DNA of 60,000 bases from Lytechinus pictus (taxonomy: Eukaryota): the NCBI RefSeq assembly GCF_037042905.1, contig NC_087245.1, positions 4,032,001-4,092,000 of the forward strand. Direction: 5' to 3'. Each line of letters opens with the position of its first letter. The stretch's first letter is position 1. Positions 11,601 to 47,999 of the stretch are shown here, one piece after another. The position numbers and the translations under genes were made by a program. The notes under the pieces were generated by a model. It had not been told where the DNA came from and did not search any database. It was given only the letters and a program-made list of their open reading frames with translations.

Positions 11601-12270
11601 GATATCTTGGTCCAGGATATATAACTGGAAAAGATCCAATATTAGAACTCTGGTCCAAAGAGAAGACAGACTTCCATTTCAAGGAAGGATGAGTCAAACC
11701 TAAACATCCAACCCTCTGGTCAAAATATTTATCCACTGTACATCTGATAAAACATCACCATTTAGAGCTCAAAATAACTCTAAGCCTATTTTAAGAAAGT
11801 TTTTAAATTCATTGCATAGGCCTATGTAGATTTTCCAGATCAGCTTCTGAGACATTTTGTTTTGCTGTTGTAAACAATGTCAAGTTCATTTTACCATTCA
11901 AGGTAAATTATGAACTGTTGATATTAAACCAAAATATTGCACTGATAATTGAATGAGAGGTATACCAAATCTTTTTATAACATTTAATCAATTATAATTT
12001 TTATACTTGAAAGATTTAGATGAAATTGATATTATTAAATATCTTTAAAAGCTATAAATTGTTGAAGGCCTCTGTATACCCTGTCTGAGAACACCCTGCA
12101 GGCAAGGTAGCTGCTTGTTCTGGCAAAGTCGACCAGCACCATGCCTATCTTGAGAATTTTTAATGGGTATGGGTGTACAAAATTGCAACATGAATTTTCT
12201 ATTAACAACCACCTAGTCTGTAAAGGTCAGGCAATCCTGAATAAAGTTACCAGCTGCCTTTTTAGTTTAA

Positions 12271-13137: not shown

Positions 13138-13141
13138 TTAA

Positions 13142-13736
13142 AGGGGAATCCAACCCAAATGAAAACTTGTTTTTATAAGGAAAAGAAAATTCAGACAAGT
13201 TGATAGGTGAAAGTTTGAACAATATTGGACAAACAACAAGAAAGTTATGAATTTTTAAAAGTTGCAAATATTGGTAATCACTATACCCATGGAGACTTCA
13301 AATTGGCCGCATATGGGATGTCATAGTGATGTAAGGCAAGGACTACTCTTCCATGTACTCCAATACATATTATGGCTAAAATGTCATTATTCCCAAATAT
13401 TTTATTGCAAATTATATTTTTCTTTCATGAGGACATATAACAATATACTACCTGGATTATATTTAGATTACTGCCCCAGGGGAATGGGTACTAAGGAGAA
13501 AACCACAAATCCCTGATAATAAAGTACATGGCCTATGGGAAAGTTGTCCTTGCCCCTTGTCATAATTTACTTACCCAGTTGCCAATTTGAAATTTACATA
13601 GTATTAGTGATCTCAATTTTAAAGCAGCTATAACTTTCTTATTGCTTGTCCGATTTCTTTCAAACTTTCACCATTCTGTTTAATTTATTTTTCTCCTTCC
13701 CAACACAACATTTAATGGCCAAGGCTGGATTTCCCT
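13142..13736. mobile_element. Kolobok-like non-autonomous DNA transposon
   Basis: TTAA|AGGGGAATCC ... GGATTTCCCT|TTAA; long imperfect subterminal inverted repeats (ggtgaaagtttgaa...aagaaagttat / ataactttctt...ttcaaactttcacc). Confidence 0.85.
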
Positions 13737-16700
13737 TTAAGTCCAGGTATAGGCTTGTATCCGAAGGGGAGCAGACAAGGCCTCACCAAATTATTTTTGC
13801 TGAGGTACATGGGTTTATTTCTAGAATAATAATTATTGGTTTTGTTTTCAGAGGTTGATCTTTTTTTTTAGTACATCCCTCACGTCAGGGAAGATGACAC
13901 ATAAACCACTGATGGCGCTAGAAACATCCTGCTTTGTTTGAATCCCCCCCCCCCCTCCCCTTCCCAATCAACCTTCCCAAACATGTCTAATTGAGCTTGA
14001 TTTTAGTGACCAGTAATGGTTACCCCCACCCCTCTCTGTAAAATAAAGGTTTAATCCTTTCTATTTGCAACAATGATGAAGAGCTCTAAATTGCATGGTC
14101 CCTTTTCATTTTTTTCCTTATTTTATATTGATTTCTGTACCATTTTTTTATCAATTTGAAATAGATCTTTTATTCTGAGAATGTTGACTATATTCCCAAT
14201 ATCTTATCAAAATAGATGATGATACAGATGCAAAAAAGTACAAATAGGCCTATATTGTACTTGGTTTATTCACTCTTATCGGAGTGTGCTAAGCGTTTCC
14301 TATCAAGCAAACTTTGCTGAAACATGAAAGAGTATAACTTTACAATAGGGTTGTTATATTAACCGACTTATACTCACACTCGCTGATACTTAGTTAGGCT
14401 TTCTAAAAGGATTAAAAGATTGATATCCAAATAAGTATACAAAATAGTTTGTTCACGAAACGGTAACCATTCTCCATTTCATACCTACACTACATGCACT
14501 ACAGTGCTCTTGGTAGACAGACTGGGAATAACTTCTATGTCACCCCTTACCTAGACCCTGTGAACCTAGCATAGTCTACCCCTAGATAGAAACCATGGAA
14601 TGACAAACCTGTTAAATGATTTCCAAATGTCTGCTCTGTCATTCTCTATTCTCTTGCTCCATATTGACAGAGGGTGACAAAGGTGTGATCACACAGCATC
14701 TCTAGTCTATTCACCCAGCTGTGCTCTGGTCCCCTATTTGACTCAACTCAGACATGTTCTTTACAAGAGCAAGAAAGAAAAAAAATAAGGGGGAAAATAG
14801 CAGGGGGAGTGGGGGGGCATAATGAGAACCATATTATGGGGCAGTTGCTTCTTTATGATTGTCTGTAGGGAAAATGCATTAAAAAGGAATAGGGAGACCA
14901 AATTAGAACCATCATGTGGGGATAATTTTAGAGGGCAGTTATTTATCCACCTCACCTAAAGTCATGTGTTGTTGTTTAGCAAGTCTCTCTACCTGTGATG
15001 ACATTACATCTCAATTTAAAGCCAGTGTTAAAGGGGGTTTTATGAGGGTAGTCCCATGAACTCTTCAAAAGGAAATTAAGATTAAAACTTGTTTTAAGTT
15101 GTAAAGCCTGTAATTTATACAAACAAAATTGTGGTCCATTTTCCTTTTTATTGTTGACTTGACACTATGTGTAGTTTAAGGTGTTAAATTTATTTTAAAA
15201 TCATTTTAATATTTGGTTGCTTCTCCAGGTACCATCTTCTCTGTTGAACAAAGGTGAATGATTTTTCTTTTTACATCGTAGCGATTACATAACTTTGCAA
15301 TTATCTCTTGAGATGCAAACACAAAAGACAAGACTTTATTTGCTCTGATGTGAATCACTGTAATCTAGATTAAATATAGAGAGCGAGATACAAAGGATAG
15401 GTCGTTTTCATGGCTACAACATGTTGTAAAATATTCTCTCTTAATCTGTGTGAGACCATTTGATAGATATCATTAGAACCTATTTTACTTGTGGAATTCT
15501 ATTAATTGACCTAAAGTAATTCTAGCAATCCATCATGATTTGTTTGTATCGTGTTCTGACTGGATTTGACAGAATTGTATCAGGATTACAAAGGTGCCAC
15601 ATCTTGATAGAGAAGTGAATTACCATAACCTTGATATATAGCCTAATGTGTCCATGTCAATCCAGTCTTAGAAATTCAGTCATGTCTTTTTCTTTCTTTG
15701 TGATGAGCCGAAGATTGCCATTCAGTCAGAAGAGATAATTGAAGGATAAAAGAGGACAATACAGGGATTGATTAACAATGCTGGAAAGAATTATCGACTG
15801 AGGCACATTTCACAATCCAGTCACTTGCCAACTAATTCAGTCAAAATGCTCTGCTCTCTATTAGAAAGGAACTCTGTGGATATGTATTTTTGGAACATGA
15901 GCAATGTTTGCCCGGAACTTGTGAAAAAATGTGAATATTTACAGATTAAACATTCTTGCTGAAATGTCATCTTTGAAAGGAAATATTGATGTTTTTGAAG
16001 GTTCTTACTGAACGTTCATCTAAAGACATTTGGAATTTTGTTATTAAGGAGAATCAACAAAGGTATGTTATGCTATTTACTTTTCTTTCTTTTGAGTATA
16101 TGGCAGACTTCTGTGCTGAGGTCAGAGACAAATGAAGCATGTATTGCACATATCTTACTGATTAGTTTGTCAATATTTTGAAATTAAATCATTTTGAGTT
16201 TCATTAACTGGTAGATAAGGCTCCGATATGCCTTTGGAGTGAGAAAGAAAATATAATATGATATGCAAACTTTTGATGATTAAGTAAATATTGCAATTGA
16301 TTGTAATCAGGGAGTAAATTATATTGCAATAAAAAAAAGACTTTGACCTGAGTTGATATTGGAGGACTTCGCAATGCATAATTAAAATGTTGCTGTGCTC
16401 AATTGTATCATTCCAATTGAAGTAAGAGGTCTTAGAGGGAAATATTAAATCTTCATATTTCATTCTCTTTAGTCTTTACATTATGTGGGTGAGTTTCTAA
16501 ATAATATGTCAAATTCTCCTTGTAATATATATATTCTAGTGTAGTTAATTTTGATTTTTACTGCACTCTGTTGTGTGGAAGCAAATGATTTATCTTTGGA
16601 AAAGGAATTAAATGGTTGACCTGCTAAAGTAGTCAGTGCTTTCAGAGTAAGCAAACTGGAAAATTAAATGATATTCCAAGGATGCAATTAGAAGTCTTGG

Positions 16701-19700
16701 AAAAACATCCTTTGTCACAAACAGCTGACCATTAGCTAATGACAAGGAATGCTTATAAATGCTAACTAAAAAGAGTTTTGTACTAGACACAAACAACATT
16801 TCTTAAGGCACTCTAAAGCACAAACAGGATGTACTGCTAAAATAAAGTTCTTTTAATTTGTCTTCTTTATTTCTTTGTTCCATTTCCTTTTTTGCTACAC
16901 ACTTGTAGTTGAGATGAAATTTGTACATTGTTTTTGAATTGCCAAGGAAAACACAAATTTGAATTCTTGTAAAATTCAGTACCTTGTTAACACAAATTTG
17001 ACGAAAAAAATCTTTAGAACACTACATTTATTTATGAAAATGACATGACCTGGATTTGGGGAATGACTGCATTATTCTTTGTGTGCGGGGAAAGTAGATC
17101 TACCTGAGGGTATAAAAACATATTGTTGGTATAAAGAAACAGCAACTTCAAAGCTATCATGCTACAATATCACCCAAAAAAAATTATTGTCAAGGTAATT
17201 TAATCTTTGTAAAAGAGAAAAGTGCCCTTTGCCATATGAAAATATGACTTCTTACTGCTGGTTTGTTGGAAAGTTTATCCGATTTGTTTCTTTTCGTTTA
17301 TGGTATAGCCCCAGGTCAGAGATTATTCTTTTCTTACACTTAGTCTTGCAGCAAATCCACAGACAGCTAACCAAATCTTAGGCTTACAGAGAACTAAAAT
17401 AGAGCCAAGTAAGATTTGTAGTGTTAAGATGATTATAATAATACTTCTTTGGCTGAAAAAGAGAGGGGGAGAAGGAAGGAGAAGATGAAATGAAAGAACC
17501 AAATTTAAAACATGCACAAATCCAGAGTGGGAGTAGATGAACTGTTTTCAATGTCTGCAGTTTCTGCTGAACAAGTGTTCAAGATAGGAAATTTACTGTA
17601 TTGAGGAGTGACTTTCATGAAATCATCTTTGGATTTTAATACATTATTCAGTCATTTGTGTTTCTTGTTTGGCAGATATCAGGCTTGCAGGTAAGATTCA
17701 TGGATTTTTAAAAAGATTCTGTTAAGGCAATTTTTCTGTGCCATATTTTCAAGCTTCATGTAGCTTTTGTATGCCTTGAGAATCCTTAGCAGTGTGATCA
17801 AGGTCTCTCTGGATAGAAGCAGTGTGACAAAGGGGGGGGGGGGGTTTTGTTCTGAAACTATTTTGGTCTTGATGCAAACACAAAGTACAATAGAATTTAG
17901 TATCAATAAATCTGATATAAATCAATCTTGTACATGTAGGTGATTCCATCCAATTCATGTTGAGAACACGAAATGGATGGCTGATTTGATGACAAAATTC
18001 ATTCAAATAATAGAATAAGTAACTCTGAAAATTTTTTATTGCAAGCTATATATTGTTTGGTAAACTTGAATAATCTACATAAATATTGCATACTGTTTTA
18101 TTATAGTAGATTCTATTAAAATTTGTTTCGGCTTGTCAAGACCAAAATTGCATAAATTCGGCAGCTGGTCCAAACTGTAATGAGGATGTGTAATGAAGAA
18201 ATGGCATGTTCAGATGCATAGGCCTCTGTAACCTGTAATCTGGTATCTTAATTAAATGCCCTGTTATCTCCATACATGTAATTAGGAATGGGCCTGTGTC
18301 CATGTATCAAAGCATGGTGATTAGAACTCAATCACTGAGCTGTAAATCTGGATCCAATAAAAGCCTCATTTGCATAACACACACATGCTAATGATGTAGA
18401 AAGCATTGCTGAAAATGAATCCCTATCTTTGGCAACATATTCTCTGGTTTGGCTTATTAAGGGGTAATCAATGAAAGAGGTGATTTGCTTTTAGGACACG
18501 TTTCAATTCTGCCTTTTCCTGTAAAAAAAAACATAATCAGTTGGCAGCTGGGTTTGCTAAAATCTATCCCAGTAATCCAGAGTTTAAACAAGCTTTTAAA
18601 CAAGAGATTGGACTGCATTAGTGCTGGCTGAATTCGTGTACAGGGTTACAGCAGAACTACATCCAACATATAGTACTATTGGAAAATAACCTCATTTGTC
18701 AGTGGACATCCGCAGTTGCCATTCTACTTCAGACACAGAAGACACCAGCTTTGTTTTGTTTTTCATTAAGGATGTTTTAATGATGTTTTACGCTGATATG
18801 TGTTGGGATATGTAAGCACAGGACTTGCATTGATTTGTTTGTGTTATTGGAGACCACTGATTTGGTCTTCTAATGTTGGACTTCATCACTTGGATGTACA
18901 TGGTATCTTGGAGGTAAAATATTTTTCATGATATATGGGGGAATAACTCAGAGATTTATGTTTCGCTCTGTAAGAGTTGAATTATTGTTGTTTTCTTTAA
19001 AGTGGTATTTCAGCTGATTTTATTATTCATTTGATGGTGAAAGGTGATATGTATGCAGGCCTCAAAACAGTTTAAATCTAAAGCTTTTGCAAAAGCCAGT
19101 TTTTTGGACTCTGGTCATATCCAAACATGATCTTGTCAGTGTACTACTGTCATCAATAGAACCAGAGGATTTAAAATAATTAACTGGATGATAATTCATA
19201 GAATTTATGACAAGTCAATATCATAATGCCTTTGCTTCTGTTTGAGTCTGAAATTAGATTTGTTATGCTAGTAATTGAATTCAAAATTATTTATCTGAAG
19301 CAAAACAAAATGTTCTTGGAAAAAAAACTTTTTAGAAAATAGGTCTTGACTATAAAACAATGCAATCTGTGATAATTTTTCTTAATGTAATTAAAGTTTA
19401 TAAGTTATACTGTGAAATTCAGTTAATCTCATGCATGCAGAATACTCGATGATAACCCAAATAACAACACATAGCTCTTGGCACTGTGAAAGATTTAAAT
19501 CTAATTTTACAATTTTCTGTAAATCTGCCCTTTCATGACTGTCTATCTCTTGGCAAGCCTTTACAGAATTGATTTACTGAGTACCCTAATTTCAAATAGA
19601 TTCAGTTTTAGATAATCAACTTTTCATGATGTGAGATAGTGAGACTTTAACCCATTATGGATTAAAGTTACCCAAGAATTCAATTTTTACAGTTTTCACA

Positions 19701-19710
19701 GCAATTACTG

Positions 19711-19915
19711 TTCAATTCAAAGTTTTATTAAATTCCAGTAAAAAAAAATCAATACTAAGTATAGAATAGAGTAATAGCAAATACATTGTACAACAATAAG
19801 GCAAGAAAATGTAAGACAAAACAAGAGAATAAACAGATACAAATGACAATAAAAAGATTATTGGAGCTGGGTGGTCATAAACACCTATGAAGGTTTGTCA
19901 AAATAACCACCCTTA
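19711..19915 (-). mobile_element. Possible degenerate 3' end of a LINE (L2/CR1 group)
   Basis: On the minus strand, AATAAA is followed by a (TTGAA)n-like tail and preceded by T-rich UTR-like sequence. Confidence 0.35.
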
Positions 19916-20670
19916 TATCAATAAAATAAGTCAGATTAAAATTACAAATGTGATCTTTTCCACCAATTTTGAAGATTAAATCAAATGATTATAGATTAAT
20001 CACTTTTGATTATGAGAGAGAATAACTTATTTGCTCGTATTTCATCGCATTGTATTCTTTGATGGCCAAATGAAAAATGGATTTAATGTCATGTTGACTA
20101 GTCTGACCTTTACTCAAACTGAAATGAAGTAAAACACACAAAAACATGCCCTTTTCAAATTTGTTGAACTAGTTCACATTTTATCACTTGTATGTTAACT
20201 GATTCTCATGGGTTATTAGTTCTAAAGGTATGTTAAGACGCAGAGGTTTGGTCTGGTATTAATGGAGTTCAGTTCCTTCCTTTTTTGATCAAATCAAAGA
20301 TATTGAGTGAAGAACATCAATTAAAATCACCTTCAGATCAAATTGATCATGACTCGGGACTTCTGTATGGCTGGTTATAAGAAACAGAAATTCAACATTT
20401 TCAATCTCTGACTTACTGAATGACCTCTGGTTTTGAAATAAACGCCCAATCCCTGGATGTAATTGACATCATACATGAAATTACATTTTCAGAATGATTG
20501 AATGTCGGTTTCAAAACCCCTTCATATCTAGATTCATGTGGTTATAATGAATTTGAGATAAAGCATTAAAAAGGTTGATTGTGAAACTGTACACCCCTAC
20601 ATTTTTAGTCAAATAATGCCTGTGATGATCGCATGTTCACAAAGTTTGTAGGTGTGGTGCAGTTCTGTGT

Positions 20671-20941
20671 AGAGGTGTTGTGGCTCAGTGGATAAGCCTC
20701 CAGACTTTGAACCACAAGGTCTGGGGTTCAAATTCCACCGCAGCATTGGCAAGGCGTTTATCTACATTAGCAACTCTCCACCAAGGTGTAGCAAATGGGT
20801 CTGGTAGGAAGAAATTACTTAAATGCTAAAGCATCCGATCAGGATAGCCATGCTCAAGCTGGGGTAATAGTATGCAGTGCTTAGAAACATTTGTATGAAT
20901 TAAGCGCTTGATAATTGTTGAATATTATTATTATTATTATT
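20671..20941 (+). mobile_element. tRNA-derived SINE
   Basis: A box TGGCTCAGTGG, B box GGTTCAAATTCC, non-tRNA body (ggcaaggcgtttatctac...ctctccaccaaggtgt), (ATT)n tail. Confidence 0.85.
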
Positions 20942-21558
20942 CCCTAATTAGCAAGTAATCAATAACTACAAAGTCATTGTATATGTACTCTCTAAATGCA
21001 AAATAGCTATTCTAGTCCCTAATCACATGCACTCCTCAAGCAATTTCAGGGACTAATCCCTGTTAACGTTGTTAACAATTCTTTTCAGAGCTAACATACA
21101 ATCAAGAAAGAATAACAAACAGTCCTTTTCAGGACTACATACTTGGTGTTTACTGTAAAAAAAAACCTCCATTAATCCCTTTCAGGTGAACTGTACATTC
21201 TTATATAGTGCATTACAGCTCCTTCTGGAGTGAACTGATAATCTTTTTTGACACTTCACTCTCAAAATATTAAAATCTCACCCCCTAAGGACTGTCCCTC
21301 GTCTCATTCCAAGAGGAATGTTATTAAGGACTAGATTAATTCTTTTGCATTTGGAGATCAACAAATATCTCTTTGGCATGCCTATATTCTAAACTGAAAA
21401 TGAAATATCTAACTACCTTAAGCATTTTAGTTCTCTTGCACTGTGGGATCAAGCATGCCTCAATTTCCAAGCCGGTTATGACATTGGGGCAAGATTGTAC
21501 ACCTTTTTTTTCTTGGGCTTCATGAAGACTATATCTATGTATAAAAGATATCAAATCA

Positions 21559-21788
21559 CACTGTTAAAAATAATTCAATCAATGCTGTTAACTATGTGAA
21601 TCGCACAGTAGTTTAAACAGTTTTAAAAAGTGTTTAAATTCTTAAACAACTATGCTTAAATCATTGATAATAAAATGTTTGAATTTAAACTTTGTTGTTT
21701 AAGATGTTAAGCACTTGTTTAAAATGTTTAAACAACTACTGTGCAATTCACATAGTAAACAGCGTTGTTTAAATTATTTTTAACAGTG
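21559..21788. mobile_element. Palindromic MITE with CACTG termini (CACTA/EnSpm-like)
   Basis: CACTGTTAAAAATAAT ... ATTATTTTTAACAGTG; imperfect arms of about 90 bp; 2-bp direct repeat CA on both sides. Confidence 0.85.
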
Positions 21789-21894
21789 CACAACTATCAA
21801 TTGATTTTTGTATTTGAAATGATTGTGTTTGTAATCACAAGTAAATGATTTGACAATTCTCTTCTGTCTCTTATATTTTCTTTGATGCACACAG

Positions 21895-21933
21895 GTTGCC
21901 AACCAAGTTGTTCAGGCACTGCTCATGCAGAAG
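21895..21933 (+). CDS. NCKAP5: NCKAP5-family exon 3, 39-nt micro-exon (VANQVVQALLMQK)
   Basis: Acceptor gcacacag|GTT; donor AAG|gtatgt; phase 0/0. It continues the family motif VANQVVQALLxQK and is absent from the ORF track. Confidence 0.93.
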
Positions 21934-22510: not shown

Positions 22511-25502
22511 GACCCCTTCCTACAAGGATTAACCTTACAGGACATTTATTATATTCCTTCACATCTTTCAAGTCTTAACATCAGTTCATTGCCCTCCTAA
22601 TATCACTCACAAGTAGAAACAATTATCCAAACTTTTGAAGTCAATGACAAACATCAATTTCATTGACACCTTCAAAACCAAAGGAACGGAAATAGTGATC
22701 AGTGATTGCCCTCTCTAGTTCAGGTAGCTAGGTGTACGTTCTTCATTTCCTATTCTCTGACTAAGACACGATCAGTAAGTAAGATGAGTCAGATTGGTCA
22801 AGTCCCAGACGTTGAGAGATCCTACCAAGAGTTTTCCAGGATATTCAAAACCAAGATGCGGAAAAACAATTGTTCTTCATAATAAAGAGCCTATGATTAC
22901 ATCGTTGAAGTAAATGATTATTTCAGCTTCAGTATTTTGTCACGATTTGGTAGTTCTGAGATGACTTCAAAATCAGATTTCTCATTCTTAGTAGCCTGTG
23001 CTGAAAACAGCCAGATTACAATATATCAAAAGCAAAATAAAGAGTTGAAAATGTTAGTGACAAACTGGATAGGTATTGGAAGTAGGGAGGAAAGGATGCT
23101 AATATTCTTGTACATCTTTAAGAAATATATAAGCAAAGAGATTTCTTGTCGAAGCCCAGATCCTGCTAATTAGTGTCCTGTCTTCTCACCAAGCTAGGAT
23201 TTCCCTTCAGCTTCTCCACAAATCTTGAAGGAAATTCAATTTTAGAGTGGCATTAATGACCCCATTTCTACTTCATTACAACTGTCTTTCCTGTTAAACC
23301 AGACTCTACATTACCCCTTCCCCTCAAAGTGTCGTAACCCATTATGTGGCCCTCATAGTTCGGAACTCAAGCAGCTGGATGCATATGAACAATAGACTTG
23401 TCTGGCACACATTTCTTGCTCATTAAGATTAGCTTTAATTAATTGGGTTTATACTTAGAAGCTTTGCTACTCACTGATATCTTTTATTGAGGTCTAGAAT
23501 GTTTTCAACTATCATTAGTATCTGAGGTTAAGATCGATGCAGCTGTTTCACTGAATTTCCAGTGAAGTGAAAATGTTTTTAGTTTGCCTAATCATGTTTG
23601 AAGAGTCAATTTTTCTTCAATCCAGCTTACATTTATGATGGAAGATTATTGATGGTTGTTGACTCTTGTGAACATTATTTAAGGTATTTTGGATCATCCA
23701 TGAAGTTTACCCATAACATTTCACTCCCTCTAAAACTATGTTTAGTTTGCCAGTTTGTTTGTATTTTCATGCATTGATAGTAAGATAAGTTATGAAGATA
23801 TGATTTGATAAAGACCAAAGTTTAAATCTATGACATGTTTGAAGAATTATAGTGGATGTTGATCTCTCTTAAAATTTCTGCAGAAGAACATTTGAATCGA
23901 AGTGCTTTCATTGAAATCTTTACCTCGGGGAAGTGAATAAGGGGGAATGAATAGTTATTATTTTCAGTTGTTTGTTAAAATCATCCAAAAGGCATTTAGA
24001 TAACAAGATGAAGCTGAATTTTGCAGTGTCATTGGATTTTGATATGTCTACCTAGCATACACATATGTTATATTTACAATTACCTGATTTTAAGCCACTC
24101 CTGTTAAGTGGATTAAAAATCAGGAGTATTCCGTGATTTGCAAAATTGTTTTCAACTCTTGAAGTTGATATGTATTATAAATAATTTTATGATTAAACTT
24201 ATATTGATGATGCTTATATTGACATATAGGGTCAATAATGGTGATATATGATACAAAGAGCTATAGGTATCTATCATGAAGTCAGCTCTAGTCATCAGAC
24301 ATGTACTGATAGAAACAGATCAAACTAAGCTGTACTTTCCCAACGCTTATATCCAGTTAGTAAACTGTCGTGATAGCTGGCTTGGTAGATTTCTCCTTTG
24401 GTTCATTCAATAATTTTGTTGTTGTTGTATATTAAGTTGAAAGACTCTTCACCAGATAAGTTTTCTGTTGGTAGGAATTATTTTTCATATTGTGTAGTTA
24501 CATTTTCTTTTGCATGTCCCACAGGAAGCTAGTGTAGATTCATTAATATTGAAAGGCTGATGGCAAGACTATGAAACCACCGCTGAATCAGAGTTTGAGT
24601 TACTATTAGAGATAGAGGGAGAGAGGGGGAAGGGATGCATGCAACTATCACTGATCAATCGTGAAGAGGGGGCAACGGGTAAGCAAGGGAGCTCTATAGG
24701 TGATATTTCTAGCCCTGTCTTGTTTCTGGAGGATACATCTCTGAGCGTGCAATGAATGGGAAGCAATAGCGACATCCTGATGGTCTTTAAGAGCCACTTC
24801 AGAAGTTGCCTCATGAGCGAGAAAATAAACTGTATCCTGTGTCTAGTATTCTATGTGCCGTTGGAATTTATTCCATCTGAATTTCAAATGAATCTCAATT
24901 TCCTTTAGAAGGCATGCTCAACTCACAGTATTCTTTGGGTTCTTGATGCATCTTCACCCTGGGAGCTTGCTTACATTATATTGTGATCATTGTAAAAGCA
25001 TCTTCCAGTTTATACTGACTTTGTCATCAGCATCATGAAGTTTTATTGGTAAACAGAATATGACAGCTCCGGAACAACATTTTGACTTTGCTTGACACAG
25101 ACACACATGGAATGGATAAGTTAGGGAACAGTATCTTATCAAGAGTGCCAGTGAATCACCATGATGATTTTATCCAGGGCAAGGAGTTGGTTGGGCTTGG
25201 ATAGTGAAACATTTCAGAACAAGTGTGAAGATAAGAAACACTAAAAAGAATGGGTTAGACCTGGAGATTTCTCTGCAGTTATTGGTTGTGTTTTTCTGCA
25301 AGGTGCTCGATGGTTTGGTAAAAAAAATGTGCTACCAGTCTTCAAGTTCAGAGATGGTCATCTTCTGTTTTTCATAAGTAATACCAGAGCAGTGGCAATG
25401 TGTCTATAGATATGGAATAATGGATATTATTCATGTTCATTGAACTTTGAAAGCATTTTTCTCTTCAGTCAAGAGGGTGGAAGAACTTTGAATTTTTCTA
25501 AG

Positions 25503-25586
25503 ATGGAGGATATTTTCTTTCCTTGGCTAGATCTGATGGTCTATTTCTCTGTCTGCATTGGACTCTGGTATTTCGTGTCACTGCAG
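25503..25586 (+). CDS. Candidate alternative first coding exon B (MEDIFFPWLDLMVYFSVCIGLWYFVSLQ), splicing to exon 4
   Basis: aagATGg start context; upstream in-frame TAG at 25407; donor CAG|gtaatg in phase 0, matching exon 4. Confidence 0.55.
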
Positions 25587-25965
25587 GTAATGTCTAATGT
25601 TGAAATGATATTTTGATATGAATTTGATTATTTCTGTCCTATCTTTGATACTAAAACAATACAACAATGTTTAGATTCATTGAAGTACTTGTAAAAGGAA
25701 TGTTTTGTTCAAAAAAGGGAAATATATTCATTTGTATCTAATTTGTTTTCTGGTATGTTGGCATATTAATGAGGCATTGTTATTTTAGAGAAACCATCAG
25801 GGGTTGAATCAAGTCAATCTATCCAGTATATTTGGTAATACATTCATCCCCAATTACCAAGTCCACCAGAGAAGGTGTAAATTTATCTGTCCTCTGGATG
25901 CTTATTTTGTTTTATTATAAGCCAGGTATATCAAACCATTAATCATAACCATTTTATTAAACAAG

Positions 25966-26645
25966 AATCTTTTTGGCCTCCCTTCATTATGTGAACGCAG
26001 AAAGGATCTCATCTTGAGTTTTGGACTTGGTCTTCTCAAATCTCACCGCCATCGAGACATGTTACCCCCCACACGTCAATCTGTTTCGCGACACAGTTCA
26101 GCCCTGCGTAACGCGCATCTTCTGGACTTACCGCGATGCAGAACTCAGAGATATAAGAACTCAACTATCCCTCATGTCACAGCATTATTGAATGCTGCTC
26201 TGTGATATGTGCCACTGTATATGCCATTGAAGTCAATGTCAACCCTTGTTCATGTTCGTATATAATTTGTGTGTAAAAGTATGACATTGTTTTCTTCCCT
26301 TCACCCTTCACCTCCTTTTTCATAACTTACAAAAGTCCCCCCCCCCTCAGTTTACATTGAAATCAATCAACATAATACATATCCCAATATTTTTGTGTGT
26401 TTTTATCGGTCATTCTATTTTCTCTTTATATAGCATTATCCCCTTAATCATATTTCTGTAATGTGTAGAACCTCGAGTGCAATATTTAATCTTACTATTA
26501 TGTTCTTATTATATTTTGTTAATTCGTAGGTATATAATTTAATGTATTTTTCCTTTTTTTCTGTTAACTTTGTATGTGTCAGTCTTCGGACTGTTTTACA
26601 ATGTCTTTCATAATAAACCGAATTGAATTGAATTGAAAAAAAAAA
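25966..26645 (+). mobile_element. 5'-truncated non-LTR retrotransposon (L2/CR1 group): ORF2 C-terminus plus 3' UTR
   Basis: Frame GLPSLCERRKDLILSFGLGLLKSHRHRDMLPP...PRCRTQRYKNSTIPHVTALLN* resembles L2/CR1-group ORF2 C-termini; ends in AATAAA-(GAATT)3-poly(A). Confidence 0.85.
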
Positions 26646-28937
26646 GGTGACGTGATTCTTGTGGTTTAACTTTTTGCAGATTTAATGACAATTATTTTTA
26701 TTTCATTCTTACTTTTTCCTCTTTAATGGCAGGCGATGTTTCAAGATATTTTCTTGAATTATGTAATGGATAGACTAAAGGTAGAATATAATATTTGCAA
26801 ATTAAAGTTGAGGAATGTAGTTTTTTTCAGTTTCATCAATACTTGTGATATATTTGGGAGCCTTTTGCCCTTGGATTGTAATCCATATTCATGTCGGTCT
26901 CTAGCTTCTGTCACATTGAATCATGATATTATTATATCATAAATAAGGGGTTATTTGAGGAATATGCTCAGCTCCAAAATAAGGGAGGAAGCTTGCAATC
27001 TCAGATGAAATGTAAGGAAGAATTAGCTTAAGTTAAGTCATCAGTTGTCACTCTAATGCAAGATTTGGATCTGAAGTTTAATATCCGTCCTCTTACAGGA
27101 AAAGTTTTCAGGAAAGGTTCTCCAAACCTATTACCTGCTCTGATATCTAAATGGATGCATTATTTTTGTTTATACTGAACATTCCCTTTTCGATGACAAA
27201 TTTTTCGTGAATTTTAGTAGATAGTTAAGTGTTTGTTTGTTTTAGAAGCCTTTGTGCTATTTCATTGTCATAGTATTTATAAATATCAAATGAATGATAT
27301 GGAGATATATTGGTTTATGTATCTTTCCTTGATGACTTGGGAATAACCTCTACATATAAAGGGGCTTACAAAAATAGATTACTTTAATTAATTTTCGTAG
27401 AAACCTTCCTTTTGGCACCTTTGGATCACAGTCATGATGGCTTGATCGTTATCATGTTCCAAATGGGTCTTAGGAAAAGCACCTCCTCCCAAAATAAAAG
27501 TCATGATGACCTTCATTAGGGGGAGGCTGGGCATTAATGTTCTTGCCTCTTTGCCAAAGATGTAATCCCTGTGGAATAAGCAGACGTTAGCATGTCATTA
27601 GTGCAAAGACAGAAGGGTTCTAAATCCTACGACTGAACTTGGATTTATGCCCTTCTTTGACTTACAGTTGATGCCTAAATCCCCAAATGAGAAAGAGTTT
27701 CTGCTATATCTCACCCCTCGTATATGATAAGGTCACATTAATGGTTAATTGTAGACAATGAATATATTACAGCCAATGTCAGCTTTCATTAACTTCACAA
27801 TATGACTATGGGTGGCCTTACTTTATTGGGATTTTACATGTATATTTTCTTTTACACTTTGATTTCTCAGTCCGGCAATGTGGTTTAAAAAGGTTTTAAA
27901 AAATTGTTTTTACACATGTAAAAGTTGTCCATTATTAAGGGGCCAAATTGAAGATGAATCTTTACTCTCTTTTGAAGCAATGTATATTTAGTGATTTAGG
28001 GTAGCTATTATGTTCAATTTTTAAATGATTAATAACAATACACAACAAAATTTTTGTATAATTTTCTTAACTTTTACCTCCATAACTATAAATTTAATAC
28101 CAGCAGCAGCAAAGTTAAGGGTGCGGCATTAAGTTGAGCTTAGGGCTGATCTAGCAAAAGATATGTCCACTCTTTCAGATGAAAATTGCAATCCAATTAC
28201 TTTTAGTTTTGTGAATGATTTCTTCTTGTAGGTCTTATAACAATTTCTTTGAGACTTATTATTTGTTAGCTTTGTATAGAATATTCAAAATAACAACTTT
28301 TTTTTTTTTTTTACATTTTGATTCATCAAATTCTATAAACCACCAATGTGGAATACATCTATTTTCATTAGTGCATTTTAATTGAGCTTTGTCTATATCC
28401 ATATTCTCACTTCTTTGTCTTGCTTACCGTGATGTAGGTTATCCCTTCTATTTTTGGTTTAGGGTGGAAGGGGTACCCCTACTTGATTACTAAGCTTAAT
28501 AGGCATCCTGTCATGTAAGGATAATCACACTCGCCTTCTAAGAAAAGAATAACCTTCAAAGGTGAATGAAACTCACAACCATCTCATTAAACTCAGACTT
28601 GCCTGGTCAAGGGCAAATAATATTGATCACAGGGAAATCATTAATTGCTTTGATTAAAAACAAAGATGTTGAATCTTCATATTGCCAATTAAAGGTTATT
28701 TTCCGTTTTTAGTCTTTAACATTAAAAGCAGTACAATCATGAGAGAAAACAAAATCTTTAAGTATCTTGGGAAATTTCAAGGGTTGCCATTGTCACATAA
28801 TTGTATAAAGGGGCATAGTTTTGATTCACAATTGAAATAAGTAGCCTGAAATAATAGCATTTTGATATAAACCTGTCTTGAACCATCAACCTCCCAATCA
28901 TTAGACCCTTTCTCTGAACCATAATGCAGATGTCTGA

Positions 28938-29747
28938 GGCTGCGTTTATGCGACCTCAAGCCAGAATCATGATTTGAATCATGATTTGAATCATGATTCA
29001 AAACACAAACATGAATCACGATGTCACAGAATCAGCGTTTAGACGACCTTCATTACAATGCTGTTTCTCCTCAGATTCGGGCCAATCCAGTGCGCATCAC
29101 TAGTGCGCAGTTTGACAGAGGAAGTTTTTCGCACGTGTTTCGGCTCTCGAAAAATCTTTTGCTTCCAGAATTCAGTCTATACCTAATTTTGTTTACTTCT
29201 ATAGGGTCCATATGCTTCTATTCATCTTGTTAGTTTATCCAAAATGGTGTTCGGAAGTGAATTTCAGCGTAGATCCAACTTAATATTAACACTCTATACT
29301 CAACAACAACTGAGATCATTGTCTGTCCAGTTAATTCATTCACTAGAACTTGAAGTTGAAGACATGACCAAAAAATGAAAAGTAGTGGACGATGCGATGA
29401 CCAACACAGAACTTGAACATGACAAGAAATGCATGCAGAGTAACCATGTATATACAATGAGCATATAGAGAGCCTTGAGCTTGGCAAGAGTCAAACCGAA
29501 AGTAGCCCGACACAGTGAGGTCATATAATCATGATTCAAATCACGATATCGTTTATTCGAACATTTTCATACGTGATTCTGTAGAAACGTCTTTCCAAAC
29601 GCCCCTTTTTTCGTAGTTCATGTTTGTGATTCTAATCATGATTATATTCAATTTCGACTAAACGCAATCGTGATTCTGCAGAATCGTGATTTGAATCATG
29701 ATTCAGATCATGATTCTAGGGTGAAAAAGTGGCGGATAAACGCACCC
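28938..29747. mobile_element. Non-autonomous PIF/Harbinger element (810 bp)
   Basis: TGA|GGCTGCGTTTAT ... ATAAACGCACCC|TGA (3-bp TSD); subterminal tandem copies of GAATCATGATTT at both ends; CpG-rich. Confidence 0.85.
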
Positions 29748-31690
29748 TGATAGTGAGGATGAACAAACTCAATCAAAGGATTTTCTCAGATATCATCTCT
29801 AGAGACCATTATTGGCCTGACTTCAACATCAAAACTTGTTGGATTATAAATTCAGTTTGTATTTGTTGGTATGACCCATATAACTGTTCCTCAAAGGAGA
29901 TGATATTCAAGACAGGTGGTGGCCGAGGATGTCACTTTCAGAGATATTTTGGTCTTTGTGATAATAATTTGAGTCAGAAAGGACAGAGGGGCATCCCCTA
30001 AAAATAAAAAGGTACAATTTCATAAAAGTCAAGTTAATCTGACTGGTGTGTGTTAGTCTTTCATATTTCAGACTTAAAATTTTCAAGTTTTCATGCAAAG
30101 TATTATGTGAGGATCTGTAATATTATCAGCCACTTCTAAACTATGTGAGCTGTTTCCATTTTTAAAATTAGAATTGTTTGACTAAACTCAATACTTATTT
30201 ATATTATAAACTTAGCTCTTCTTTCAGAGGGGGGGGGGGCTCTTTCTAACCCATCCATCTCCCCTCTTTCTCTCTCTTGCTTTCTTTGCCTCATGTGTAT
30301 TTTATTTTCTTCCCACATGATTCTTGATCATCAATGAACAATCCCCACCCTCCATCCCCATAATGCACATCCTTCCTCCTTGCCCTATATCTATATTTCA
30401 GAGCCAGCTACATAATAAACTTTCCCTTAGATTTCCAAGGACCTGCTTTAATTCTTGTGTCATTCTATTTTTGGTGGAAAAATGAATGTTGCGGAAGAGC
30501 CCTAGGTTTTTAAAAGCAAGTCTTCAAATATTCAGTGGTAGCTAAGTTTGAACCATGCAAGCTGTTGTGTGGATTATAGAAAAGAGATGAAGAGCTTGAG
30601 TAATGTAGATCATGGGGAAAAAGGAGCCAGTAAAATTATTTGTATGTTACATGTTGGATGGGAAATAATCAAATAGAAAATAAATGAAATCATTGCCAAG
30701 TCACAAACTCCTCATCTTCGATTTCCTTCATGACAAATTTCACTCGTTCAATATGCTGCAAGAGACATTGTGGTTCCATTTTAAAGAAGGTATTTTACTG
30801 AGATTCCAAAAATACTTTTTTTCAAACCTCAAAAAGCTCTTCCAATCTAGAGTATATACGACAGGTGCCAGCAGTTAAGATGAAAACAAGCTGATGAACA
30901 TGGAGAGAAGGATATCCGTTATTAATATTTAGAGACGGTCAATATGAAAGATAAACCTCACAAGGTCACCTGTGTGTATAAACCAGAGAGGCAAAATAGG
31001 GGAGAGACCTAACACCAAAAATAGCATTCATTCATTTTATATCTAAAAGTCATGGAAATTAAAATTTTGAATAGAGTTGAAGAAGAGGATAGCTTAATTT
31101 TCTTCATGTCAACGATGTAAATATTTAATTTAGAGTACGTTCCCATTGTGAAGGTATTTTTGGGGGCTGGTGGAGAGATAATATGCATGATAGAATTCAT
31201 TTGTATCATCATATTTTGTGTTACCCATTTACAAAACAGATTTTTGTTAAAAACAAATTGACCAATGTTTGGGCAGTTGTTAGAGTTAATTCAATTTGGA
31301 AGAATTTGATGAATTTCCTTCTTTTCCTGTCCTGACACAATAAGTCAAGTCAATGATGAGACAGGAGGGGTGAAGATTGATAGGGACAGAAAGGAAAAGG
31401 GCTGGAAATATTCATATCCTAAATCAATTGAGAAAAGGAATAAGGGGTAAAAATTTTTAAAATGTGATAAGATACATTCGATGTAAGATTTTTCTAAGTT
31501 TATTTTGGTTTTGACAATATTTGATGCACGTTGTTCATATTTCATTTTCAAGCATGAATAGTAAAGCATAGGGTGGCAACCTGAAAGCTTTGCAAAGAAA
31601 ATCAGAATTATATGCAGGTATTCTTTTCTGAGTATTGGAGTGTTTATACTAGGCTTATTAGACATGTTTCTTACCAAATTTTCTTTGTAC

Positions 31691-31898
31691 GGCGATAGCT
31701 CAGTCGGTAGAGCAGGGGATTTGTATTCCGGTGACCCGGGTTCGATTCCCACTTGGTGCGCTAGTGCCCTTTGGTAAGGCATTAATCCTCATTACCAGGT
31801 CCTTTGGAGAGGACCTTAAGCCGTCAGTCCTCTGGTTGCTTGCTTACAAGCATTCATGCTTTCTTAGCAATCAGGTAAAAAATCCCCACCAACCAACC
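31691..31898 (+). mobile_element. tRNA-derived SINE, third family (Deu-domain-like body)
   Basis: A box TAGCTCAGTCGGTAGAGC, B box GGTTCGATTCC, body gtcctttggagaggaccttaagccgtcagtcc, (CCAA)n tail. Confidence 0.85.
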
Positions 31899-32100
31899 AT
31901 ATCCTTGCATAATGATTTTTTAACAAACATTTGGTTATGGATAAATGGATGTAATAGTAGGTATTTGTTTTGAATGTCTAAATGAATTTTATCATTTGGG
32001 TAATCAGACATTGTCTCTTTTCTTTTCATATTCCCTAATTCATGTGATCAGTAATATTCTAACCATTTTCTATCTTCTCTTGTTTTGTTTTTCCTTGTAG

Positions 32101-32223
32101 GATCTGCGTGACGAGTGCCTGAAGTTACATGGTAGAGTACGAGATCTGGAAGTTCAGAATCGGAATCTAAGGTGCCTCTTTGATCAGAATAGATTCAAGC
32201 AATCCATCCCTTCTCCATCACAG
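32101..32223 (+). CDS. NCKAP5: NCKAP5-family exon 4 (DLRDECLKLHGRVRDLEVQNRNLRCLFDQNRFKQSIPSPSQ)
   Basis: Long pyrimidine tract then ttgtag|GAT; donor CAG|gtaaaa; 123 nt, phase 0/0. Matches the recalled family motif DLREECxKLKxRVFDLExQN. Confidence 0.92.
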
Positions 32224-32478: not shown

Positions 32479-32739
32479 TCTTCTTCACATCAGCAATATG
32501 TTTCCTATGGAAGTACCTCACCAGGTTTGGCAGGTTGTTCAATACCAGTCCTTACACCCTCAGCATCTTCCCATTCTTCATCTTCATCAGCCTCACCTGG
32601 TCTCTATGCACCCTTCAACCATCCACTGAGGACCACCAAACATCAACGGTCAGAGCCTGGTCCTTCTGGCTCAACCCCAGAGAGTGGCAAGGATCCACCG
32701 CTTAGCCCTCGCTTGTTGCAGGGACAAGCTCCTAAGAAG
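32479..32739 (+). CDS. NCKAP5: NCKAP5-family exon 5 (Ser/Pro-rich, SSSHQQYVSYG...QGQAPKK)
   Basis: Acceptor cctacag|TCT; donor AAG|gtaagg; 261 nt, phase 0/0; lies within ORF 32422..32772. Confidence 0.75.
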
Positions 32740-33204
32740 GTAAGGGCCATCATCATCAAGGGGGTTCTTTGAATTCATTAACCTGTGTTTTGGCACTATT
32801 AACATACGAGGTGTTTCACAAAAAGTATTTTCTAACTTTATACAGGGATAGTTATATGTTGATAGGCAATGAGTTGTAAATCTGTTGTATACTGGAGCCA
32901 GGTGATCTCTGTATAAAGCGTATGGTAATGACAGATATGCCAGACTGTTCATGCCATTAACTCTTTTGAGGGAAGTGGATGTTTTTAAGTAATTTTTTAT
33001 GTAGCTACAGATTATCAAATAGTTTTGTTTTCTTATTTGGAACCAAAGCCCTGTTGTAAATTGGTTAAGTTATTGTAAAGCAGCCCATGAATATATTATG
33101 AAGGGGAAAAATGTACATCTCTTATTCATTAAATTGCTGAGTGTGATGAGACAGAACAGTTTGAAAAAAAAAATTCTCATAATTAAAATGAAATGTCAAA
33201 TCTG

Positions 33205-34199
33205 TTTTTGTATCACCTGCATAGCAGAGTGAGACTATGAGGCCGTTCTCATTACGCTTTCTAAAACTAGTTTACTGGAAACCAATTCAGGAAACCACTT
33301 TAGAAGATCGCTTTGCTAGCGTTCCCACTTGATCACACGAAAGTGGTTTTCAAAATCACTTCACGTAAAGCGCTCTTGTTGCTATGGAAACGCTCTCAGT
33401 GGGGTGATACGTTTCGCGCGAAATTCGAAACCGCAGCATGGGCATTCTACACCTGTCGTGTGGAGTAGCGTGCTCAAAATGTGCGTAGATCGCTTCCCGA
33501 AGAACGGTTGTGTCCTCACTTACGCTAAAACCAGTTTAACGAGGCAAAGCAATCTTGAAAACTACATCGCGAGGTGTAAAAGGTCATTTAGGGTCAATGA
33601 ACTTTGGCTAAATTGGTGGTATATGTTGAATTACCATCATAACTTTGAAAGTTTATGGATCTGATTCATGAAACTCGGCCATAAGAGTAATCAAGTATCT
33701 TTGAACATCCCTCCGAGTTTCAGGTCACATGACCAAGGTCAAAGGTCATTTAAGGTCAATGAACTTTGGCCATGTTGGAGGTATTTGTTGAATTACCATC
33801 ATATCTCTGTAAGTGTATTGGTCTAGTTCATAAAACGTGGACATAAGAGTAACCAAGTATCACTGAACATCTTGTGCGACTTTCAGGTCACATGACCAAA
33901 GTCAAAGGTCATTTAAGGTCATTGAACTTTTGCCATTTTTGAGGTAATTATTAGATTGCTGTCATAACTTTCAAAGTTTATAGATATAGTGTATAAAATG
34001 TGGATATAGGGGTAATCAAGTATCACTGACAAGTTTTAGGTCACATGATCAAGGTCAAATGTCAATGAACGTAGTATTGTATCATTATATGAATGGTGTT
34101 TTTTGTGAATAATTATTTTATAGTAGTTTTCAAAGTCAGCACTGCTGCTATATTAAATCGCGTGATGCAGGTGAGACAGCCAGAGGCATTCCACTTGTT
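33205..34199 (+). mobile_element. Helentron/HINE-like non-autonomous element with an internal tandem array of about 162 bp units
   Basis: Subterminal inverted repeat TCACCTGCAT (33213) / ATGCAGGTGA (34165); T-rich insertion site; 3' end CTTGTT; about 3 tandem units beginning aggtcatttaaggtcaatgaactttggc at 33581, 33743 and 33906. Confidence 0.7.
33241..33577 (+). mobile_element. Harbinger-like fragment nested in the HINE-like element
   Basis: Begins TGA|GGCCGTTCTCA; CpG-rich and unrelated to the host's tandem units; no right TIR found. Confidence 0.55.
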
Positions 34200-34912
34200 T
34201 TTTTTATAATTTTACATTATGTTACTTTCCACATCTGTTGCCTTTCAGATATAGATGCCATTGTATAGAAAATATTTCATTAATTTGAGGAGTTTTTCCC
34301 CCAATGCTTTATAAAATAATTACATCATTTATGGTTTCTAACAGAGAAATATTAATTGATTCTTAAACATTATATTTGAAGTTATGCAGTAAACTATGAA
34401 TAGGGCTGAAACCTGCAATTGACCTGCATTTCTTCAATATCAAATTTCCAAATCAGCCCTATCTAAATCTTAGGAAGGAAAAGTAAATCATGACATGGCA
34501 AACTCGCAAAGTCAAGGTTAGGTACGCATCCTTCCTTGAAGTTTGTTTAGCGAATATTGATGTATATCCATTGCATGGAACTGTATCACATCCAAAGAGC
34601 TTTCTCAAGGATCAAAATGGAGAATGCCTTTTCAAATGACTCACCGATCTTGTTTGAAGCAACTTTTATTATGAAAAATAGAAATCATCTGAAGCAGATT
34701 AACATTGGCATGATAAAAACCGTAGCATTTGTGCTCATTTTAGATAGGTGGAGGTTTTTTTTTCATGGTGTAGATCACTTTATTTGCGATTTCCTTTCAA
34801 ATTTTTTGAAATGTTAGGTGATATAGATTTAGGAACAACAACTAGGGATACCCACAATCCTTCATGCATGAATATCTTTTGATACATGATTTTGTCTTTT
34901 TTGTGTGTACAG

Positions 34913-44358: not shown

Positions 44359-44393
44359 ATGGGATTGTACAAAATGAACCATGAAAAGATGAG
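44359..44393 (+). CDS. Candidate alternative first coding exon C (MGLYKMNHEKM-S), splicing to exon 7
   Basis: acaATGg start context; upstream in-frame TGA at 44326; consensus donor AG|gtgagt in phase 2, matching the phase-2 acceptor at 46119. Confidence 0.55.
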
Positions 44394-47860: not shown

Positions 47861-47887
47861 TTTTGTTTCAAGATATTCAAATGAGCT

Positions 47888-47967: not shown

Positions 47968-47999
<32 letters not shown>

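What the first reader, a model, noticed from the sequence alone, without database searches (positions are those of the whole stretch)
24560..25592. Hidden alternative first exon encoding a signal-anchor-like peptide: a possible membrane-tethered NCKAP5 isoform
Seen: inside intron 3, aagATGg at 25503 opens 28 codons, MEDIFFPWLDLMVYFSVCIGLWYFVSLQ. These include an uncharged hydrophobic run of about 17 residues, end at CAG|gtaatg in phase 0 (the phase of exon 4), and follow an in-frame upstream stop. About 1 kb of repeat-free sequence with a GA-rich tract lies upstream. Established: NCKAP5L/Cep169 is described as a soluble EB1-binding centrosomal/plus-end protein. Inference: an isoform of about 2010 aa that swaps most of the coiled coil for a membrane anchor while keeping the SxIP motifs, i.e. 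an organelle-to-microtubule-tip tether. I know of no such isoform for this family.
Basis: partly seen in the sequence, partly recalled or inferred. Interest (0 to 1): 0.75.

Follow-up and report, generated by a model that had tools for sequence, protein, structure and literature searches.

The report
Membrane-anchored NCKAP5 isoform in sea urchins
A sea-urchin gene for a microtubule-tip protein has a real, spliced alternative front exon that replaces most of its coiled coil with a conserved membrane-spanning-like helix, so one gene probably makes both a soluble form and a form that ties a membrane to growing microtubule ends; public gene models already contain the isoform, but the membrane role is untested.

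Summary
Observation confirmed. The 28-codon exon (25503-25586) is real. A contig from a related urchin joins it directly to exon 32101. RefSeq models of Lytechinus pictus (2014 aa, 2014 of 2014 residues map to this window) and L. variegatus already start with it, so it is not hidden. An unnamed diverged orthologue keeps 23 of 28 residues, the start context and the residues read through the donor, while similarity falls off upstream of the ATG. The peptide is the only strongly hydrophobic segment of the protein, is non-amphipathic and has an acidic N-flank, which predicts an N-out/C-cytosol signal-anchor. An SxIP motif shared with starfish is kept. Not shown: membrane insertion, EB1 binding, the transcription start, and the junction in the window's own species (1 contig run and 1 read run, both low coverage). 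0 of 20 non-Lytechinus echinoderm proteins carry it. At least 22 upstream ATGs burden the leader. Verdict: new variant of a known kind, STIM1/TAOK2-like in design.

The parts
24678..25502 (+). Transcribed 5' leader of the alternative exon (5' end not mapped; it lies somewhere in 24356-24678). 22 upstream ATGs from 24678 on, 26 from 24526 on.
   Evidence: X2 contig 9 covers 24678-25584 unbroken; X1 contig 3 covers 24764-25439; X21 raw reads depth 0.6 and 1.2 in bins 24356-25363, 0 in bin 23852-24355, same mate orientation as the canonical junction reads; ATG list
24608..24635 (+). GA-rich tract, role unknown (promoter element or leader)
   Evidence: sequence only
24500..24525 (+). Pyrimidine tract and AG that look like a 3' splice site; if used, the exon is internal (24526-25586) rather than first
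   Evidence: no joint to it among the 15 joints shown (17 more not shown)
25503..25586 (+). Coding part of the alternative exon, 28 codons, strong start context
   Evidence: RefSeq P0009 and P0006; orthologue P0035 23 of 28 identical
25533..25583 (+). Residues 11-27: uncharged hydrophobic helix, predicted signal-anchor; S16-xxx-G20 on the face that continues the a/d register of the following coil
   Evidence: helix with pLDDT about 90 in the orthologue model; membrane insertion inferred
25587..32100 (+). GT-AG intron removed in the alternative isoform
   Evidence: X2 contig 9, record 1-911 on 24678-25584 and record 912-1036 on 32099-32223 (2-base slide at the joint)
32101..32223 (+). First shared exon: last four heptads of the conserved coiled coil
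32479..52502 (+). Remaining shared exons (32479-32739, 34913-37526, 46120-46260, 46895-47038, 48293-50239, 50678-50820, 51913-52502; ends approximate to 1-2 bases where codons are split): long low-complexity region and C-terminal conserved blocks
   Evidence: 2014 of 2014 residues of P0009 map here
49220..49231 (+). SKIP motif (residue 1432 of the isoform) in a basic context, aligned with SRIP in Diadema and starfish: best EB1-binding candidate
   Evidence: binding not tested
739..21933 (+). Canonical upstream coding exons skipped by the isoform: 739-936, about 1616-1705, 8506-8640, 21895-21933
   Evidence: joint 21933^32101 in X21 (9 reads), X1 and X7

Best explanation
An internal promoter (or an upstream non-coding exon) in the last intron of the coiled-coil region of a sea-urchin NCKAP5-family gene gives a minor transcript with a leader of 0.8-1 kb and a 28-codon start that is spliced in frame to exon 32101 (SHOWN in a sister species; annotated in this one). 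The peptide is under selection as protein (INFERRED from one diverged orthologue). It most likely works as an uncleaved reverse signal-anchor: the short acidic N-terminus crosses the membrane, residues 11-27 span it, and the other 1986 residues stay in the cytosol (INFERRED). The four remaining heptads probably keep it dimeric, and the disordered tail keeps its SxIP motifs, so the protein would link an endomembrane, ER or Golgi most likely, to growing microtubule ends through EB1, like the STIM1-EB1 tip-attachment complex (INFERRED by analogy). It loses most of the coil whose counterpart in human Cep169 (residues 1-135) binds CDK5RAP2, so the promoter switch would trade centrosome association for a membrane. 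My odds by step: exon real 0.95, translated 0.85, membrane-inserted with the tail in the cytosol 0.7, plus-end tether 0.5.
For: Junction: X2 contig 9 skips the 6.5-kb GT-AG intron exactly; X7 contig 20 (another study) covers 25017-25584 at record 22-590 of 620 and its bin depth shows no run-on into the intron. RefSeq: 2 of 5 Lytechinus cluster members begin with the peptide joined to exon 32101. Orthologue P0035: 23 of 28 identical, changes E2D, I4V, V13I, Y14F, I19F (4 of 5 with positive BLOSUM62 score, all keep the residue class acidic or hydrophobic), against 1 of 31 (5 of 31 after a one-residue shift) in the frame upstream of the ATG; residues after the exon are again V-M, as read through the donor here; I before and D after the Met imply A at -3 and G at +4. 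Only segment of P0009 with KD19 above 0.82; hydrophobic moment 0.02-0.14; flank charge -3 (N) against +1 (C), -3 kept in the orthologue; flanking charge largely sets orientation (PMC2139883, start of abstract in the listing). SKIP/SRIP stands out as a conserved island between urchin and starfish. A membrane-bound, zipper-dimerised SxIP protein plus EB3 is sufficient to pull membrane tubes in vitro (PMC7090928, passages). Cep169 tracks plus ends through SxIP and binds CDK5RAP2 through residues 1-135 (PMC4613824, passages and section 14).
Against: In the two runs labelled with the window's own organism neither the coding part nor the junction was covered in the rows shown: X21 depth 0 in bin 25364-25867 (about 6 in 100 of the run read), X1 contig ends at 25439 (17 joints and 1913 pieces were not shown). 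The isoform is minor in 3 of 4 runs (contig depth 5.0 against 28.1 in X1, 7.6 against 20.4 in X7, read depth about 1 in X21). 22-26 upstream ATGs should hinder scanning. Conservation beyond Lytechinus rests on ONE unnamed sequence of unknown divergence, with no DNA, so no dN/dS. 0 of 20 Diadema, starfish and sea-cucumber proteins that hold the shared exon carry the peptide; searches for further orthologues found none. Identity between the two Lytechinus species says little at 3-5% DNA divergence. Hydrophobicity is moderate: a position-free sum on a biological scale (values recalled) is 0.03 for 17 residues and 2.97 for 19. AT-rich intron DNA readily gives hydrophobic peptides ending in LQ: 3 of the 6 hits are such read-throughs. 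2.7 SxIP-like words are expected from composition, 6 seen.
Confidence: 0.55

Rival explanations
1. The isoform is membrane-anchored but is not a plus-end tether. It is a membrane scaffold or decoy: through the shared heptads it pairs with the long isoforms and either brings CDK5RAP2/gamma-tubulin or Lis1-dynein loading activity to a membrane (a non-centrosomal organiser), or draws the long isoforms away from the centrosome. The membrane could also be the mitochondrial outer membrane.
For: The shared exon keeps a regular a/d pattern with an Asn at an a position. Human Cep169 binds CDK5RAP2 and is needed for Lis1/dynein loading at plus ends (PMC11466077, passages). Moderately hydrophobic N-terminal anchors also target mitochondria (own knowledge).
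Against: The isoform lacks about two thirds of the conserved coil (58 of the 87 residues printed lie upstream of the shared exon). The C-flank is only weakly basic (+1), unlike typical mitochondrial signal-anchors (own knowledge). The conserved SxIP island argues for EB1 use.
Confidence: 0.2
2. The exon is transcribed and spliced but yields little or no protein: it is a regulatory or poison exon (entered through the acceptor at 24525 from exon 21895-21933, which meets a stop within 12 codons) or a uORF-silenced leader, and the hydrophobic frame is incidental.
For: Good-looking acceptor at 24524-24525, 26 upstream ATGs, low abundance and no coding-part coverage in the two own-organism runs, absent from 20 other echinoderm models.
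Against: Orthologue similarity begins exactly at the Met and the changes are conservative; start context kept. In run X2 this junction was assembled and the canonical one was not listed. No joint 21933^24526 among the 15 shown.
Confidence: 0.12
3. The helix is translated but does not span a membrane: it is a protein-binding or palmitoylated (Cys18) helix, or simply caps the shortened coil.
For: Marginal score on the biological hydrophobicity scale; Cys18 is kept in the orthologue.
Against: Near-zero hydrophobic moment, 17 uncharged residues, aromatic residues at both ends, all kept in the orthologue.
Confidence: 0.08
4. The peptide is a cleaved signal peptide or a type II anchor that sends the long tail into the ER lumen or out of the cell.
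For: Ser at -3 and Gln at -1 before residue 29 are allowed by the classical signal-peptidase rule (recalled).
Against: Acidic n-region (-3, kept in the orthologue), no polar c-region, and a tail made of cytosolic-type coil and SxIP motifs shared with the soluble isoforms.
Confidence: 0.05

Closest known systems
RefSeq models XP_063963418.1 (Lytechinus pictus, 2014 aa; P0009) and XP_041481404.1 (L. variegatus isoform X2, 2044 aa; P0006), both named 'microtubule-associated protein futsch-like'
   Same: Exactly this isoform: same 28 residues joined to the same exon; P0009 maps 2014 of 2014 residues to the window.
   Different: Automatic predictions under an uninformative name, with no mention of NCKAP5 or a membrane segment in the names shown. 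The L. variegatus model starts 23 residues earlier at an ATG that is out of frame here.
Human Cep169/NCKAP5L (PMC4613824, passages and section 14; PMC11466077, passages)
   Same: N-terminal conserved coil, long proline/serine-rich tail, SxIP motifs; family assignment by UniRef names of the starfish and sea-cucumber orthologues.
   Different: Described as centrosomal and plus-end tracking; the words 'membrane' and 'isoform' occur 0 times in PMC4613824. The urchin isoform loses most of the region matching the CDK5RAP2-binding part and gains a hydrophobic helix.
STIM1-EB1 tip-attachment complex (PMC7090928, passages)
   Same: Predicted design: one membrane helix, a dimerising coil, SxIP in a basic disordered cytosolic tail.
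   Different: No homology claimed. STIM1 has a lumenal calcium sensor (own knowledge); here only about 10 residues would be lumenal, the tail is about 2000 residues, and the anchor is isoform-specific.
TAOK2 alpha/beta (bioRxiv 10.1101/2021.04.22.440958, passages)
   Same: One gene gives a membrane-anchored isoform that tethers ER to microtubules and an isoform without the hydrophobic region.
   Different: TAOK2 alpha has four C-terminal helices from alternative splicing and binds microtubules directly; here one N-terminal helix from an alternative 5' exon and a predicted EB1 link.

Membership tests
NCKAP5/NCKAP5L family | Conserved N-terminal coiled coil | tested here: met
   P0007 aligns with P0037, which UniRef names Nck-associated protein 5, E 1e-78, near-identical over the coil; the shared exon is 20 of 37 identical to locus L008, whose resemblance to vertebrate NCKAP5 is recalled, not tested
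NCKAP5/NCKAP5L family | Exon layout: 39-base exon followed by the phase-0 coil exon | tested here: met
   L008 shows the same 39-base exon and next exon; one locus only, organism not named
NCKAP5/NCKAP5L family | Pfam NCKAP5 domain (C-terminal; accession PF15246 recalled) | tested here: not met
   No such hit at E up to 1 in 9 of 9 proteins, including the starfish and sea-cucumber orthologues. This lowers formal membership; I treat the gene as a probable orthologue by its coil, not as a Pfam member.
NCKAP5/NCKAP5L family | Direct or reciprocal comparison with named vertebrate NCKAP5/NCKAP5L | not testable with these tools
   No named vertebrate sequence was returned; Atlas hits were generic coils under 0.9
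SxIP-type plus-end tracking proteins | SxIP motif in a basic, serine-rich disordered context | tested here: met
   6 motifs (2.7 expected); the one at 1432 has net charge +4 and aligns with SRIP in Diadema, Acanthaster, Asterias and Patiria
SxIP-type plus-end tracking proteins | EB1 binding and plus-end tracking | not testable with these tools
   needs pull-down and imaging
Reverse (type III) signal-anchor proteins | Uncharged hydrophobic helix of about 17-21 residues near the N-terminus | tested here: met
   17 uncharged residues, KD19 1.75 (1.89 in the orthologue), low moment; marginal on the recalled biological scale
Reverse (type III) signal-anchor proteins | C-flank more positive than a short, unfolded N-flank | tested here: met
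   -3 against +1; 10-residue N-flank
Reverse (type III) signal-anchor proteins | Uncleaved insertion with N-out/C-cytosol topology | not testable with these tools
   no SignalP/DeepTMHMM here; needs topology assay
Alternative first exon | Spliced in frame to a downstream shared exon | tested here: met
   X2 contig 9; RefSeq models
Alternative first exon | Own transcription start site | tested here: inconclusive
   No pile-up of molecule starts (table 6: none); contigs cannot show starts; candidate acceptor at 24525

The most novel reading that the evidence does not exclude
Sea urchins evolved a promoter switch that turns a centrosomal/plus-end NCKAP5 protein into an integral-membrane tip-attachment factor. 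Its membrane helix dimerises through an SxxxG face in register with a four-heptad zipper, and with a 2000-residue flexible arm it couples ER or Golgi to growing microtubule ends independently of STIM1, possibly also carrying the long isoforms with CDK5RAP2 or Lis1-dynein to that membrane. It would be the first membrane-integral member of the family, and a candidate for organising membranes on the large asters of urchin eggs and embryos.
Probability: 0.3. Interest if true: 0.7.

Novelty: new variant of a known kind. Interest (0 to 1): 0.48.

Why it matters
Few natural membrane-to-plus-end tethers are known, and a membrane anchor, a zipper and an SxIP motif are sufficient for one in vitro (PMC7090928). 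If the prediction holds, this isoform is a natural example built by a single new exon in a family described only as soluble, in a tractable embryo model where an isoform-specific knock-out is easy to design. The limits are that the isoform is already in automatic annotation, seems confined to some sea urchins, and that switching a protein between soluble and anchored forms by an alternative end exon is a familiar device.

Tried and rejected
1) A look-alike 'sister exon' ending at 7969 shares a 16-base word across its donor-like site with this exon (3 exact copies in the genome). Rejected as duplication or transposon origin: 7909-8174 is a dispersed repeat (41 matches, 40 of 118 candidates scored), and the candidate exon does not resemble 23 anchored copies outside the word (57 of 179 and 86 of 179 background sites score as well; pairwise 22 of 179 at DNA level and 1418 of 5000 shuffles at protein level). 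2) Short internal cassette through AGs at 25468 or 25502: rejected, since X2 and X7 contigs run unspliced through both and the orthologue has no AG before the ATG (Ile codon). 3) P0034, P0036, P0038 looked like distant membrane isoforms but read as acceptor pyrimidine tracts translated into the shared exon (my reading); P0033 is an unrelated repetitive coil. 4) N-terminal extension of the L. variegatus model: out of frame here and not kept in P0035. 5) No paralogue of the exon in the genome (5 matches, only self with E under 1) and one copy of the coil exon. 6) Further orthologues: none in metagenome contigs (0 of 196 candidates), none among 30-99 aa proteins, only 2 full-length hits among 3 candidates; second metagenome scan gave 2 of 78, one NCKAP5-like locus with a 288-base intron and no such exon, and one unrelated bacterial-type hit. 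7) Homodimer prediction for residues 1-62: no verdict. 8) Atlas searches: nothing at 0.9 or above. 9): no RNA holder listed on record (18 rows were guessed RNA). 10) First attempt at a full spliced model used wrong exon ends and was replaced by mapping P0009.
Full report
OBSERVATION. In 320 kb of local DNA on both strands it is the only one of 87 strict donor-like sites (9 with an ATG frame of 19 or more residues) that gives a TM-like peptide; a looser rule adds only a microsatellite (2 of 233). The thresholds were chosen after seeing the candidate, so this is supportive, not a test.

THE GENE. The window holds most of a sea-urchin NCKAP5-like gene on the + strand. Coding exons lie at 739-936, about 1616-1705, 8506-8640, 21895-21933, 32101-32223 and seven more to 52502; two further coding exons lie about 7.5 and 62 kb upstream. 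Orthologues were found in Diadema, starfish and sea cucumber (5 hits among 6173 candidates); UniRef names two of them Nck-associated protein 5. Pfam gave no NCKAP5 hit for 9 of 9 proteins, so family membership rests on the coil, the exon layout and those names.

THE EXON IS REAL AND ALREADY MODELLED. Of 5 members of the Lytechinus cluster, 2 begin with the 28 residues joined to exon 32101: XP_063963418.1 (L. pictus, 2014 aa, every residue maps to the window) and XP_041481404.1 (L. variegatus isoform X2). I laid 4 of the 23 runs listed on 17300-32400. In X2 (organism B, RNA by guess) one contig runs 24678-25584 and continues without a gap in the record at 32099-32223, which is the 25586^32101 junction with a 2-base slide. 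In X7 (organism B, another study) a contig covers 25017-25584 and stops matching there with 30 letters left, which the table does not place; bin depth shows no run-on into the intron. In the window's own organism, X21 raw reads lie on the leader in the sense orientation (depth 0.6-1.2, zero in the bin upstream) and an X1 contig covers 24764-25439, but neither covers the coding part or the junction in the rows shown; 17 joints were not shown. The canonical joint 21933^32101 was seen in X21 (9 reads), X1 and X7 at three or more times the depth, and was not listed for X2. So the isoform is minor in 3 of 4 runs. The 5' end is unmapped, and an acceptor-like site at 24525 leaves open that the exon is internal.

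THE PEPTIDE IS CONSERVED. A search of residues 1-67 of P0009 against 1.84 billion representatives gave 6 hits. One, P0035 (unnamed, ENA), carries a diverged copy of the exon: 23 of 28 identical, with E2D, I4V, V13I, Y14F and I19F; the two residues after it match what the donor reads through here; the flanking residues imply the same strong start context; and the frame upstream of the Met is 1 of 31 identical, or 5 of 31 after a one-residue shift. That pattern is what selection on a peptide starting at this ATG would leave. It is one sequence of unknown divergence without DNA. Three other hits are intron pyrimidine tracts read into the shared exon, a warning that such peptides arise easily. None of 20 Diadema, starfish and sea-cucumber proteins that contain the shared exon has the peptide (3, 5, 7, 4 and 1 proteins; 8 fragments without that exon left out), and three more searches found no further copy. 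The known range is thus two Lytechinus species and one unnamed relative.

HOW IT LIKELY WORKS. Residues 9-27 are the only segment of the 2014-aa protein with a KD19 above 0.82 (1.75). The moment is near zero, aromatic residues flank both ends, and the charge is -3 before and +1 after. AlphaFold on the orthologue alone gives a helix with pLDDT about 90 over this stretch and under 50 for residues 1-153, which is weak support since hydrophobic stretches fold so anyway. Flanking charge largely sets signal-anchor orientation (PMC2139883, start of abstract only), so I predict N-out, C-cytosol. The next exon keeps four heptads whose a/d register continues into the helix through L27, Y23, G20 and S16; SxxxG as a membrane dimer motif is recalled knowledge, and dimer formation is not shown. 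The tail is 72% disorder-promoting residues and keeps 6 SxIP-like words, one of which (1432) is a conserved island with starfish. Human Cep169 tracks plus ends through SxIP and binds CDK5RAP2 through residues 1-135 (PMC4613824; passages and section 14), and helps load Lis1-dynein at plus ends (PMC11466077; passages). A membrane-bound, zipper-dimerised SxIP construct with EB3 pulls membrane tubes in vitro (PMC7090928; passages). The simplest reading is therefore a promoter switch from a centrosome-associated to a membrane-anchored plus-end linker. Every step after splicing is inference. Against it: moderate hydrophobicity, 22-26 upstream ATGs, low abundance, narrow known range.

KNOWN AND NEW. 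The sequence is in RefSeq under a misleading name; the design resembles STIM1-EB1 and the isoform logic resembles TAOK2 alpha/beta (bioRxiv 10.1101/2021.04.22.440958; passages). I found no paper on a membrane-anchored NCKAP5 isoform: NCKAP5L + isoform (20 of 21 listed), Cep169 + EB1 (6 of 6), NCKAP5 + SxIP (1 of 1), alternative first exon + transmembrane + SxIP + isoform (0), NCKAP5/transmembrane/sea urchin (15 of 3106 listed), NCKAP5 with promoter or anchor terms (12 of 474 listed, none with NCKAP5). Apart from the four papers named as read in passages I saw only listings; the library lacks most subscription papers, and I opened no supplements. The scan's own notes hold nothing on this gene family, while one search shows other alternative first exons in this genome, some already annotated.

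VERDICT. A real, annotated, conserved alternative 5' exon that probably adds a membrane anchor to an NCKAP5-like plus-end protein. New variant of a known kind; interest 0.48, rising to about 0.7 if the tether function were shown.

Noticed in passing
window 7715-7852: Another alternative 5' coding exon: the L. variegatus model P0001 starts here and splices from a donor at 7852 to exon 8506. With the candidate exon and the next item this makes a nested set of internal starts along the coil. Not covered by the read lay.
   Followed up: partly
window 17640-17696: Strong donor-like site at 17690 with no in-frame ATG; may be a non-coding first exon for the L. variegatus X3 form (P0008), which starts at the Met inside exon 21895-21933, or a 15-base microexon (17676-17690). 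No depth in X21, X1 or X2; an X7 contig runs through it unspliced.
   Followed up: partly
window 7909-8174: A dispersed repeat of about 265 bases, at least 40 other copies at 72-97% identity, which carries a built-in donor-like word; here it prolongs an open frame (7703-8089) with a hydrophobic stretch (KD19 1.83). Class of element not determined.
   Followed up: partly
   Followed up: yes
G000:C1:3969866-3969937 and 4024461-4024525 (approximate end): Two further coding exons upstream of the window; the full-length isoform is probably about 2240 aa as in Diadema setosum.
   Followed up: partly
P0016, P0017, P0018, P0003, P0015: Starfish models also have several short alternative N-termini joined at other coil exons, one shared by two Asterias species; none is TM-like except a weak stretch in P0003 (KD19 1.14).
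   Followed up: no
window 31690-31890: tRNA-like repeat (probable SINE; my reading) with very high, strand-biased RNA depth from copies elsewhere (1879 against 189 in X21).
   Followed up: no
window 35173 region (large exon): The L. variegatus models have three extra residues (QMY) here relative to this window and P0009: a 9-base indel between the species or alleles.
   Followed up: no
P0001 versus P0006-P0008: L. variegatus has two separate gene models on the same chromosome record with near-identical sequence, possibly a haplotype duplication in that assembly; the present genome has one copy.
   Followed up: no
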